A DNA stretch of 64,000 bases. Origin: Escherichia coli (GTDB lineage Bacteria > Pseudomonadota > Gammaproteobacteria > Enterobacterales > Enterobacteriaceae). This document shows positions 13,725-16,700 of this stretch, one piece after another; within the stretch, counting starts at the first letter, position 1; each line of letters begins with the position of its first letter. The position numbers are program-made. The stretch lies in the NCBI RefSeq assembly GCF_003790525.1, contig NZ_CP033635.1, one strand, 5' to 3'.

Positions 13725-16700
13725 TGATCTGATTCGGGCGCGGTTCTCGCGCCCGTTATTAACAGGTCATTTATCGGAAGACGCCTGCCACAGATTCAGC
13801 TCGCCATCGGCGATATGCTGATCAATCTGCGCCAGCTCCTCGGTGCTAAATGTCAGATTATTCAGCGCCTGCACGTTCTCCTCAAGTTGCTCCGCGCGGC
13901 TGGCACCAATCAATACCGACGTCACGCGATCATCTTTCAGCAACCAGCTTAACGCCATTTGCGCCATTGATTGTCCACGCTGCTGTGCCATTTCATTCAA
14001 TAACCGCAGGCTGTTGAGGTTGGCTTCGGTGAGCATTTTCGGCGTCAGACCACGAACTTTATTCCCTTCACGATGCATCCGTGAATCTTGCGGAATGCCG
14101 TTGAGATATTTTCCGGTCAGCAATCCCTGAGCCAGAGGAGTAAAGGCAATGCAGCCCACGCCGTTATTTTGCAGGGTATCCAGCAGGCCGCTTTTATCCA
14201 CCCAGCGGTTCAGTAAATTGTACGAAGGTTGATGAATTAACAGCGGAATTTTCCACTCGCGCAGTAACTCGACCATTTTTTGCGTCCGCTCTGGCGAGTA
14301 AGAGGAGATCCCGACATACAGCGCCTTACCGCTTTGTACCGCATGAGCCAGCGCAGAGGCGGTTTCTTCCATCGGCGTATTTTCATCGACGCGATGAGAG
14401 TAAAAGATATCGACATACTCAAGCCCCATCCGCTTCAGGCTTTGGTCGAGGCTGGCGAGCAGGTATTTACGTGAACCGCCAGAGCCGTAAGGGCCGGGCC
14501 ACATATCGTAGCCAGCCTTGGTAGAGATAATCAGTTCATCGCGATAAGCGGCAAAATCCTCCCGCAGCAGGCGACCAAAGTTCTCTTCTGCGCTTCCTGG
14601 AGGTGGCCCGTAATTGTTGGCTAAATCAAAGTGCGTAATGCCCAAATCAAACGCTTTACGCAGGATCGCACGCTGTGATTCCAGCGCGTTAACGTGACCG
14701 AAATTGTGCCATAAACCGAGCGATAACGCGGGCAGGCGTAAACCGCTTTTTCCGCAATAGCGGTACTGCATCTGCCCGTAACGTTCGGGATTCGCTAACC
14801 AGACCATGACCTCTCCTTTCCACCGTTCAATTTCGAAACAATGTTTCTAGTTTAGCGATTCGCCAGCGCGTATCCCGTAGTCTGGCTCACAGAGTGACGA
14901 AAAACTGGGCGAAAACACGTGCTTATGCTTTGCTTAAAAAAACACCAGTTGAGGAGTGCAACGATGCCGCGTTTAACCGCCAAAGATTTCCCACAAGAGT
15001 TGTTGGATTACTACGACTATTACGCTCACGGGAAAATCTCGAAACGTGAGTTCCTCAACCTTGCGGCGAAGTATGCGGTAGGCGGGATGACGGCATTAGC
15101 GTTGTTTGATTTGCTCAAGCCAAATTATGCGCTGGCGACTCAGGTAGAGTTTACCGACCCGGAGATTGTTGCTGAGTACATCACGTATCCTTCGCCAAAT
15201 GGTCACGGCGAGGTACGGGGTTATCTGGTGAAACCCGCAAAAATGAGCGGCAAAACGCCAGCCGTGGTGGTGGTGCATGAGAATCGTGGACTGAATCCGT
15301 ATATCGAAGATGTGGCACGGCGAGTGGCGAAGGCGGGGTATATCGCCCTGGCACCTGACGGCTTAAGTTCCGTTGGAGGTTATCCGGGAAATGATGATAA
15401 AGGTCGTGAGCTGCAACAGCAGGTTGATCCAACCAAACTGATGAATGATTTCTTTGCCGCAATTGAGTTTATGCAACGCTATCCGCAAGCGACAGGCAAA
15501 GTGGGTATTACCGGATTTTGCTATGGCGGTGGCGTATCGAACGCGGCGGCTGTCGCGTATCCGGAACTGGCCTGCGCGGTGCCGTTTTATGGTCGCCAGG
15601 CACCCACTGCCGATGTGGCGAAGATTGAAGCGCCTTTACTACTCCACTTCGCGGAACTGGACACCCGAATCAACGAGGGCTGGCCTGCTTACGAGGCGGC
15701 GTTGAAAGCCAATAATAAGGTTTATGAGGCGTATATCTATCCGGGGGTTAATCACGGATTCCATAATGATTCCACGCCCCGTTATGACAAATCTGCCGCC
15801 GATCTTGCCTGGCAAAGGACACTGAAATGGTTCGATAAATATCTCTCCTGATAGGTTTATCTCTTACGGGATTACGTCTTAAACAAGCATGAAAAAATAG
15901 CGTGCGCAAAAGTCGTTCTTTGCCTAAAATATCGCTATATATGACAATATATAGCGAATGAGGTGAACGATGAATAACCATTTTGGTAAAGGCTTAATGG
16001 CGGGATTAAAAGCAACGCATGCCGACAGTGCGGTTAATGTGACAAAATACTGTGCCGATTATAAACGCGGTTTTGTATTAGGCTACTCGCACCGGATGTA
16101 CGAAAAGACCGGAGATCGCCAGCTCAGCGCCTGGGAAGCGGGTATTCTGACGCGCCGCTATGGACTGGATAAAGAGATGGTAATGGATTTCTTTCGTGAG
16201 AATAATTCCTGTTCTACGTTGCGCTTTTTTATGGCCGGTTATCGCCTCGAAAATTGATCAAACATACGTATTATCTTGCTTTAATTAATTACACTAATGC
16301 TTCTTCCCTTCGTTTTAGCGCCCCGCCGCAGTATCATGATATCGATAACCATAATAAATGTGTGGTAAATGGCGCATCGATCGCATTATTGATTTTGCGA
16401 TTGAGGCAAAATATATGCCAGGTCTTCGCAACGGAATAACTATAAATGACTGGAGATAACACCCTCATCCATTCTCACGGCATTAACCGTCGTGATTTCA
16501 TGAAGCTTTGTGCAGCATTAGCCGCCACCATGGGGTTAAGTAGCAAAGCCGCTGCAGAGATGGCCGAATCGGTTACTAACCCGCAGCGTCCGCCAGTTAT
16601 CTGGATTGGCGCGCAGGAGTGCACCGGTTGTACGGAATCTCTGCTTCGTGCAACGCATCCAACGGTAGAAAACCTCGTGCTGGAGACTATCTCTCTGGAG

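What the first reader, a model, noticed from the sequence alone, without database searches (positions are those of the whole stretch)
15932..15956. Perfect 10-bp inverted repeat immediately upstream of yghW
tcgctatatat-N5-atatatagcga is a perfect palindrome centred about 25 bp before the yghW start codon, with the size and symmetry of a dimeric regulator operator overlapping the promoter. yghW lies just upstream of the hyb operon, so the site could belong to an anaerobic or metal-responsive regulator.
Basis: seen in the sequence. Interest (0 to 1): 0.3.

Follow-up and report, generated by a model that had tools for sequence, protein, structure and literature searches.

The report
ModE molybdate-repressor operator at yghW
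The palindrome just upstream of yghW is a near-ideal binding site for ModE, the molybdate-sensing regulator of E. coli; it most likely switches yghW off when molybdenum is plentiful, and a 2013 study had already reported ModE control at this locus.

Summary
The palindrome is real but was slightly miscounted. It has 11-bp perfect arms at 15932-15942 and 15947-15957 and a 4-nt spacer. It matches CGnTATATA-N6-TATATAnCG with no mismatch, and it is the only such site in the 64-kb window. The ModE-controlled promoters of E. coli K-12 carry the same box: modA (2 mismatches), moaA (1) and dmsA (1).

All 80 yghW loci fetched from other Enterobacteriaceae keep the box with 0-1 mismatch, ending 12-23 nt before the start codon in 79 of them. 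The arms are nearly invariant, while the spacer and the two N positions vary. Neighbouring genes differ: hybO follows yghW in only 30 of the 80 loci. Distant DUF2623 homologues (29-45% identity) keep the box too.

In 80 metagenome contigs with the extended motif, it lay next to yghW in 26 and next to modA or modE in 20.

The box covers the predicted -10 element and leaves no room for a promoter downstream, so I infer repression by ModE-molybdate. Published transcriptomes show yghW moving together with modABC.

Kurata et al. 2013 already reported direct ModE control at yghW and its antisense gene morA, so this is known biology. The function of YghW remains unknown.

The parts
15932..15957 (.). 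Perfect palindrome with 11-bp arms and a 4-nt spacer, read here as a ModE operator. The core box CGCTATATA-TGACAA-TATATAGCG lies at 15933-15956.
   Evidence: It has the same layout as the boxes at modA, moaA and dmsA in MG1655. It is conserved in 80 of 80 orthologous loci.
15933..15941 (.). Left half-site CGCTATATA.
   Evidence: About 2 bits per position across 79 distinct sequences, except the N at box position 3.
15948..15956 (.). Right half-site TATATAGCG.
   Evidence: About 2 bits per position, except the N at box position 22. This arm is retained in strain ATCC 43889, which has lost the left arm.
15942..15947 (.). Variable 6-nt spacer of the box (TGACAA here).
   Evidence: Within Escherichia the spacer also reads TTACGA, TGGCGA, TGTTTA, TTTTTG, TTGTAA or TAATTA, while the arms stay fixed.
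15920..15925 (+). Predicted -35 hexamer TTGCCT of the yghW sigma-70 promoter.
   Evidence: PMC3946193 lists a constitutive RpoD promoter TTGCCT-17-GACAAT for yghW. The consensus T[T/C]GC[T/C][T/C] is moderately conserved at this position. This is a prediction; no transcription start site has been mapped here.
15943..15948 (+). Predicted -10 hexamer GACAAT, at the centre of the palindrome.
   Evidence: with the sequence. In most other genera a perfect TATAAT lies at box positions 6-11 instead. Either way the -10 element lies inside the box.
15960..15965 (+). Shine-Dalgarno sequence GAGGTG of yghW, 4 nt before the ATG.
   Evidence: Sequence. A purine-rich GAGG-like tract follows the box in the orthologues.
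15970..16257 (+). yghW coding sequence (95 aa, DUF2623/PF11115), the gene that the box accompanies.
15748..15981 (-). Minus-strand ORF of 77 aa that starts inside yghW and reads through the palindrome. It might relate to the published antisense gene morA, but its status is uncertain.
   Evidence: The ORF list is only a mechanical listing. yghW/morA is cited as an overlapping antisense pair in PMC4683798 and PMC5960689. I could not obtain the coordinates of morA.

Best explanation
The palindrome is an operator for ModE, the homodimeric molybdate-sensing transcription factor. Each arm (CGCTATATA / TATATAGCG) would be one half-site for one ModE subunit. The box lies over the -10 region of the yghW promoter and ends 13 nt before the start codon. 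When molybdate is plentiful, ModE-molybdate should occupy the box and block RNA polymerase, which shuts off yghW in the way it shuts off modABC. When molybdenum is scarce, ModE should leave the DNA and yghW should be transcribed. Any antisense transcript that starts in or crosses the box, such as the reported morA, would come under the same control. What is shown here is the motif identity, its conservation, its linkage to yghW and its position relative to the gene. ModE binding at this locus comes from the literature. The direction of regulation (repression) is an inference.
For: 1) Motif identity. The site has 0 mismatches to CGNTATATA-N6-TATATANCG and is the only site in the window with 3 or fewer mismatches. 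The ModE-regulated promoters of MG1655 carry the same box with the same N6 spacing: modA CGTTATATT-GTCGCC-TACATAACG, moaA CGCTATATA-CATGAT-TACATAGCG and dmsA CGATGTATA-CAAGCC-TATATAGCG.

2) Unbiased association. In 80 metagenome contigs that carry ATCGNTATATA-N6-TATATANCGAT, the adjacent ORF is a YghW homologue in 26 and ModA and/or ModE in 20. The rest include DmsA/YnfE and gamma subunits of type II DMSO reductases.

3) Conservation. All 80 yghW loci from more than 20 genera have the box with 0 mismatches (71 loci) or 1 mismatch (9 loci). It ends 12-23 nt before the start codon in 79 of them. The arms carry about 2 bits per position, and the flanks carry about 0-0.5 bits beyond position -30. 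DUF2623 homologues at only 29-45% identity also have the box, with 0-2 mismatches, 14-31 nt upstream.

4) The box travels with yghW, not with its neighbours.

5) Promoter overlap. PMC3946193 predicts TTGCCT-17-GACAAT for yghW, and that -10 hexamer is the centre of the palindrome.

6) Architecture. The arrangement mirrors modA, where the box ends 19 nt before the ATG.

7) Co-expression. The Salmonella 'molybdate iModulon' consists of modABC, yghW and three other genes (PMC9764980). yghW and modABC fall together in Salmonella cells expressing Std fimbriae (PMC6173445) and in an E. coli sigma-70 mutant (PMC4888631).

8) Prior experiment. Kurata et al. 2013 (PMID 23913318) is titled as identifying the genes, 'including nonannotated morA', under direct ModE control, and yghW/morA is cited as an overlapping pair. 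The K-12 sequence is identical to the window here.
Against: I could not read the Kurata, Anderson or Studholme papers. The exact published site, and whether ModE was found to regulate yghW itself or only the antisense morA promoter, therefore rest on my memory of the abstract and on citing papers. No transcription start site was available for either strand, so the promoter elements are predictions. The hairpin also scores as terminator-like on the minus strand and folds well as RNA, so an additional role at the RNA level is not excluded. The co-expression evidence is correlative. The consensus pattern used for the ModE box came from my memory, although it was then confirmed on the modA, moaA and dmsA sequences.
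Confidence: 0.9

Rival explanations
1. The palindrome works mainly as an RNA hairpin. On the minus strand it would be an intrinsic terminator or attenuator for an antisense transcript such as morA. On the plus strand it would be a 5'-leader structure in yghW mRNA read through from yghX.
For: The terminator scan flags the minus strand: an 11-pair stem, a 4-nt loop, then TATTTTAGG. The predicted RNA folding energy is -13.5 kcal/mol on the minus strand (z-score -4.3) and -17.8 kcal/mol on the plus strand (z-score -5.6). In the plus-strand fold, UUGCCU also pairs with the Shine-Dalgarno sequence. An A-tract upstream of the box is conserved, and it would be a U-tract on the minus strand.
Against: The bases themselves are conserved, not just their pairing. 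Nine of the 11 pairs barely vary, and the two that do vary are unpaired in 25 of 66 distinct sequences. The same motif stands in front of modA and modE in unrelated contexts. The stem has only 3 G-C pairs. No gene converges on the palindrome from the right. With the predicted -10 inside the box, yghW mRNA would contain only the right arm.
Confidence: 0.06
2. The site is an operator for a different dimeric regulator tied to the neighbouring hyb operon, such as the anaerobic regulators FNR or ArcA or the nickel regulator NikR.
For: yghW lies 189 bp upstream of hybO in E. coli. The palindrome has the size of an operator.
Against: No FNR-like TTGAT-N4-ATCAA site with 2 or fewer mismatches lies between 10391 and 20033. 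hybO is adjacent to yghW in only 30 of 80 loci, yet the box is in all 80. The motif matches the ModE boxes exactly and occurs next to modA and modE in metagenomes.
Confidence: 0.02
3. It is a chance palindrome in an AT-rich promoter (TATATA repeats) with no specific function.
For: TA-rich promoter DNA readily forms short palindromes. Four of the 80 metagenome hits were plain (TA)n repeats.
Against: Only 0.14 perfect inverted repeats of at least 11 bp are expected per shuffled window. The flanking CG dinucleotides are invariant in 79 distinct sequences. The box is conserved from Escherichia to Cedecea, Buttiauxella and Shimwellia, and in homologues of about 30% identity.
Confidence: 0.01

Closest known systems
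ModE operator of the E. coli modABC promoter (CGTTATATT-GTCGCC-TACATAACG)
   Same: It has the same half-sites and the same 6-nt spacing, and it sits just as close to the start codon: the box ends 19 nt before the modA ATG, against 13 nt for yghW. I expect the same outcome, repression by ModE-molybdate. That modA is repressed this way is established knowledge and was not tested here.
   Different: The yghW box is a perfect palindrome with 0 mismatches to the consensus, where modA has 2. The gene it controls encodes a small cytoplasmic protein of unknown function rather than a transporter. An antisense gene (morA) has been reported at this locus.
ModE activator sites at moaA and dmsA
   Same: They share the box and the N6 spacing, with 1 mismatch each.
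   Different: Those boxes lie well upstream of the coding sequence, about 176 nt before the moaA ATG and about 74 nt before the dmsA ATG. [quoted passage not shown] At yghW there is no room for a promoter downstream of the box.
ModE motif of the archaeon Methanosarcina acetivorans, RTTATGT-N8-RCATAAY
   Same: It has the same palindromic architecture. Read in that register, the yghW site is GCTATAT-N8-ATATAGC, and many enterobacterial orthologues read GTTATAT-N8-ATATAAC. It is a repressor site for genes expressed under molybdenum limitation (PMC12327845).
   Different: One position of each half-site differs (G/C in place of A/T). The regulon is different (alternative nitrogenases), and that ModE has only one Mop subdomain.
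Rho-independent (intrinsic) terminators
   Same: It has a stem-loop followed by a T-rich run on the minus strand.
   Different: The stem is AT-rich, the T-run is short and interrupted, and no gene ends there on that strand. What is conserved is the sequence, not the pairing.

Membership tests
ModE operator (molybdate regulon box) | An inverted repeat that matches CGnTATATA-N6-TATATAnCG. | tested here: met
   It has 0 mismatches at 15933-15956. The next best site in the 64-kb window has 4 mismatches.
ModE operator (molybdate regulon box) | The same sequence and geometry as the sites at the established ModE-controlled promoters of the same species. | tested here: met
   MG1655 modA (2 mismatches), moaA (1) and dmsA (1) all carry the box with N6 spacing in their upstream regions. 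That these three promoters are ModE-controlled is established knowledge; PMC2408646 supports it for moaA.
ModE operator (molybdate regulon box) | The motif is associated with molybdate uptake and regulation genes across genomes. | tested here: met
   Of 80 metagenome contigs carrying the extended motif, 20 have it next to modA and/or modE and 26 next to yghW.
ModE operator (molybdate regulon box) | A modE gene is present in the organism. | tested here: met
   modE (b0761) is annotated in E. coli MG1655. The window is E. coli DNA.
ModE operator (molybdate regulon box) | Physical binding by ModE-molybdate. | not testable with these tools
   The only evidence is from the literature. Kurata et al. 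2013 (PMID 23913318) reports direct ModE control including morA, the gene antisense to yghW. The paper is not held in the library.
ModE operator (molybdate regulon box) | Molybdate- or ModE-dependent expression of the adjacent gene. | not testable with these tools
   The evidence is indirect. yghW belongs to the Salmonella molybdate iModulon with modABC and changes in the same direction as modA/modABC in two other transcriptomes.
Intrinsic terminator | A G+C-rich stem-loop followed by a U-tract at the 3' end of a transcription unit, with the pairing conserved. | tested here: inconclusive
   The minus strand passes the simple scan. However, the stem has 3 G-C pairs out of 11, no gene ends there, there is no real covariation, and two pairs are broken in 25 of 66 sequences.
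FNR site (anaerobic regulator) | TTGAT-N4-ATCAA close to the promoter. | tested here: not met
   No match with 2 or fewer mismatches lies between 10391 and 20033.

The most novel reading that the evidence does not exclude
The conserved target of this operator is yghW itself rather than the antisense morA. DUF2623 would then be a core, functionally uncharacterised member of the ModE regulon: a small helical cytoplasmic protein made under molybdenum starvation that acts in molybdate or molybdenum-cofactor homeostasis. In support, every DUF2623 gene examined carries the box, including homologues of about 30% identity. One distant homologue sits directly after a box-controlled operon encoding a ModA-like binding protein, and another sits after a MOSC-domain gene. 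No paper in the searchable library mentions DUF2623.
Probability: 0.5. Interest if true: 0.45.

Novelty: already known. Interest (0 to 1): 0.25.

Why it matters
For the palindrome itself, this closes the question. It is the ModE box of a locus already reported as a direct ModE target, so it is ordinary and explained. What remains of value is what the site points to. yghW has the best ModE box of the four E. coli sites compared here. The link between the box and the gene is kept across the whole DUF2623 family, whatever the neighbouring genes are. That marks YghW as a dedicated molybdenum-limitation protein whose function nobody has described. It also suggests that the sense gene, not only the antisense morA, deserves attention in the ModE regulon.

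Tried and rejected
- Key papers: I tried to read Kurata 2013 (PMC3807462), Anderson 2000 (PMC94831) and Studholme & Pau 2003. None is held, so morA's coordinates and the published footprint could not be checked.
- Literature searches: searches using the word 'ModE' mostly returned noise.
- Transcription start sites: I looked for a yghW start site in the supplements of Kim et al. 2012 and found only an orthologue table.
- Ribosome modulation factor: I tested a resemblance between YghW's repeated G-x-x-x-G/aromatic motifs and this protein, and rejected it (hhalign probability 0.4%).
- napF: no good box was found in the 120 bp upstream of napF that I scanned. I did not extend that search.
- Second ModE site: I looked for one that could serve an antisense promoter inside or downstream of yghW, and there is none.
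- FNR site: none is present near the palindrome.

Full report
**Observation.** The sequence at 15932-15957 reads TCGCTATATAT-GACA-ATATATAGCGA. It is a perfect inverted repeat with 11-nt arms and a 4-nt spacer. Its statement that the centre lies about 25 bp before the yghW ATG at 15970 is correct. Perfect inverted repeats of this size occur at three places in the window, against 0.14 expected in dinucleotide-preserving shuffles. The window is E. coli DNA. The region is present in 5421-5422 of 5426 complete genomes, and the intergenic sequence is identical in K-12 MG1655. yghW (15970-16257, 95 aa) belongs to DUF2623/PF11115. An intact yghX-type dienelactone hydrolase gene ends at 15851, and hybO starts at 16446.

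**Identification.** A Salmonella transcriptome study places yghW in a 'molybdate iModulon' with modABC (PMC9764980). This suggested ModE, the molybdate-sensing regulator. From memory, its operator consensus is CGnTATATA-N6-TATATAnCG. The palindrome matches that pattern with no mismatch. It is the only match in the 64-kb window even when three mismatches are allowed, where 0.12 matches are expected, and the next best site has four mismatches.

I checked the recalled consensus against real sequence from MG1655. The upstream regions of the three classic ModE-controlled operons carry the same box with the same 6-nt spacing:
- modA: CGTTATATT-GTCGCC-TACATAACG
- moaA: CGCTATATA-CATGAT-TACATAGCG
- dmsA: CGATGTATA-CAAGCC-TATATAGCG

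The yghW site is therefore closer to the ideal box than any of these three. The ModE motif verified by gel shift in Methanosarcina, RTTATGT-N8-RCATAAY, has the same architecture (PMC12327845).

**Independent test of what the motif marks.** I scanned public metagenome contigs for the extended pattern ATCGNTATATA-N6-TATATANCGAT. For 80 contigs I took the first ORF reading away from the motif on each side and classified these ORFs with Pfam, NCBIfam and phmmer.
- In 26 contigs the neighbouring ORF is a YghW homologue.
- In 20 contigs it is ModA and/or ModE.
- The other 34 include five Peripla_BP_2 binding proteins, a DmsA/YnfE molybdoenzyme, gamma subunits of type II DMSO reductases, and four plain TA repeats.

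The motif is therefore the operator of the molybdate regulon.

**Conservation.** Using an alignment of YghW proteins, I fetched 80 loci from one genome per species. They cover Escherichia, Citrobacter, Salmonella, Klebsiella, Raoultella, Kluyvera, Kosakonia, Enterobacter, Lelliottia, Phytobacter, Cedecea, Buttiauxella, Shimwellia and other genera.
- Every locus has the box, 71 with no mismatch and 9 with one. In 79 loci it ends 12-23 nt before the start codon.
- The information-content profile shows a sharp island. The two arms carry about 2 bits per position. The N positions (3 and 22) and the last two spacer positions carry 0.6-1.1 bits. Sequence more than 30 nt upstream is essentially unconserved.
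- Within E. coli and its sister species, the differences inside the box fall almost entirely in the spacer and at N22.
- Four distant DUF2623 proteins (29-45% identity), found with a profile search of 1.8 billion representative proteins, also have the box with 0-2 mismatches, 14-31 nt upstream.
- The neighbouring genes are not conserved. hybO follows yghW in only 30 of 80 loci, and yghX or gpr are present only sometimes.

The box therefore belongs to yghW, not to the hyb operon.

**Protein site or RNA hairpin?** The palindrome would fold as RNA (-13.5 to -17.8 kcal/mol). On the minus strand it passes a simple terminator scan. However, nine of the eleven pairs essentially never vary, and the two that do vary are unpaired in 25 of 66 distinct sequences. 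Fixed bases at the contact positions and free variation at the N and spacer positions are what a sequence-specific dimeric protein would produce. A structural RNA would not produce that pattern. An extra RNA-level role on the minus strand cannot be excluded, and I give it low weight.

**Mechanism.** Ishihama's genomic SELEX study lists a constitutive sigma-70 promoter for yghW, TTGCCT-17-GACAAT (PMC3946193). This puts the -35 hexamer at 15920-15925 and the -10 hexamer at 15943-15948, the exact centre of the palindrome. In most other genera, the left arm plus the spacer form a perfect TATAAT at box positions 6-11. The asymmetric conservation of spacer positions 10-13 fits a -10 element for the yghW direction. 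Only 13 nt separate the box from the ATG, and they contain the Shine-Dalgarno sequence, so no promoter can lie downstream of the box. ModE bound there must therefore occlude the promoter or block elongation. In either case it represses. The layout copies modA, where the box ends 19 nt before the ATG. It contrasts with moaA and dmsA, where the box lies far upstream and ModE activates. Co-expression agrees with this reading: yghW moves with modABC in three independent data sets. Repression remains an inference, because no start site or reporter data were available to me.

**Prior knowledge.** Kurata et al. [quoted passage not shown] Later papers cite yghW/morA as an antisense overlapping gene pair from that study. 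The full text is not held. From my memory of the abstract, ModE targets were found by genomic SELEX, and morA was a new ModE-controlled promoter on the strand opposite yghW. The window contains only one ModE-like box and the K-12 sequence is identical here, so the published ModE target must be this palindrome. The finding is therefore already known in substance. RefSeq does not annotate morA. A 77-aa minus-strand ORF (15981-15748) crosses the palindrome, but I could not establish how it relates to morA.

**What is left open.**
- No paper in the searchable library mentions DUF2623.
- The genomic context of two distant homologues hints at a role in molybdenum homeostasis. One sits behind a box-controlled operon encoding a ModA-like binding protein, and the other behind a MOSC-domain gene.
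- One study reports that a yghW knockout changes butanol tolerance and membrane fatty-acid composition (PMC4888631).

**Verdict.** The regulator is ModE with high confidence. The site is already known and of low to moderate interest. The conserved, uncharacterised YghW protein is the more interesting lead.

Noticed in passing
L088 (E. coli O157:H7 strain ATCC 43889, NZ_CP015853.1 4296444-4296783), equivalent to window ~15870-15947: This strain has a deletion of about 78 bp between two TTACG microhomologies. One copy lies just after the yghX stop codon, the other in the O157-type spacer TTACGA. The deletion removes the predicted yghW -35 element and the left arm of the ModE box and leaves only TATATATCG. 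It is a natural operator/promoter deletion, and the only low-coverage row among the 40 records sampled from the 5421 with a match.
   Followed up: partly
L211 (Logan SRR36458227 contig), 517-540 and 2446-2469: A distant DUF2623 homologue (40% identity) lies directly downstream of a two-gene operon encoding a Peripla_BP_2 protein and a ModA-like SBP_bac_11 protein. That operon has its own ModE box with 1 mismatch. A DUF1543 gene follows, and DUF1543 also appears near another distant homologue (L210).
   Followed up: partly
L215/L217 (NCBI GCA_054647575.1 and a Logan contig): Another distant DUF2623 homologue (41% identity) sits 64 nt downstream of a MOSC-domain (YiiM-like) gene, with the ModE box (1 mismatch) in the gap between them. 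MOSC domains are linked to the molybdenum cofactor, so this is a second context hint.
   Followed up: no
window 15920-15965 (+ strand RNA): If RNA is read through from yghX, the predicted fold pairs UUGCCU (the -35 hexamer) with the yghW Shine-Dalgarno region around the hairpin (-17.8 kcal/mol, z-score -5.6). This could mask translation of read-through transcripts. I did not check whether it is conserved.
   Followed up: no
window 12126-12154: A perfect 11-bp inverted repeat, ATGCCCGGTTG-CTTTTCA-CAACCGGGCAT, lies between a 141-aa plus-strand ORF ending at 12120 (I took it to be exbD, from its size and position after a 244-aa ORF) and a convergent 294-aa minus-strand ORF ending at 12158. It looks like a shared bidirectional terminator.
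   Followed up: partly
window 26006-26042: A perfect 12-bp inverted repeat, CGTACTGATTAT-GAAGA-ATAATCAGTACG, is extended by CCC/GGG. It lies 19 nt after a 620-aa ORF ending at 25991 (the size of gss, not checked). An AT-rich 240-bp region follows before the next ORF at 26283. It is terminator-like but has no clear T-run.
   Followed up: no
window 14919-15851: yghX is an intact ORF here (Pfam families DLH and YqhI-like), whereas MG1655 annotates it as a pseudogene plus a separate small gene, yqhI. The window therefore comes from a non-K-12 E. coli strain, although the yghX-yghW intergenic region is identical to K-12.
   Followed up: partly
alignment A5 (YghW family): YghW shows four internally similar motifs of the type aromatic-x-x-G-x-x-x-G ([34 protein letters not shown]). 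Their glycines are invariant across the family, which suggests a repeated helical hairpin unit. A tested similarity to ribosome modulation factor was not significant.
   Followed up: partly
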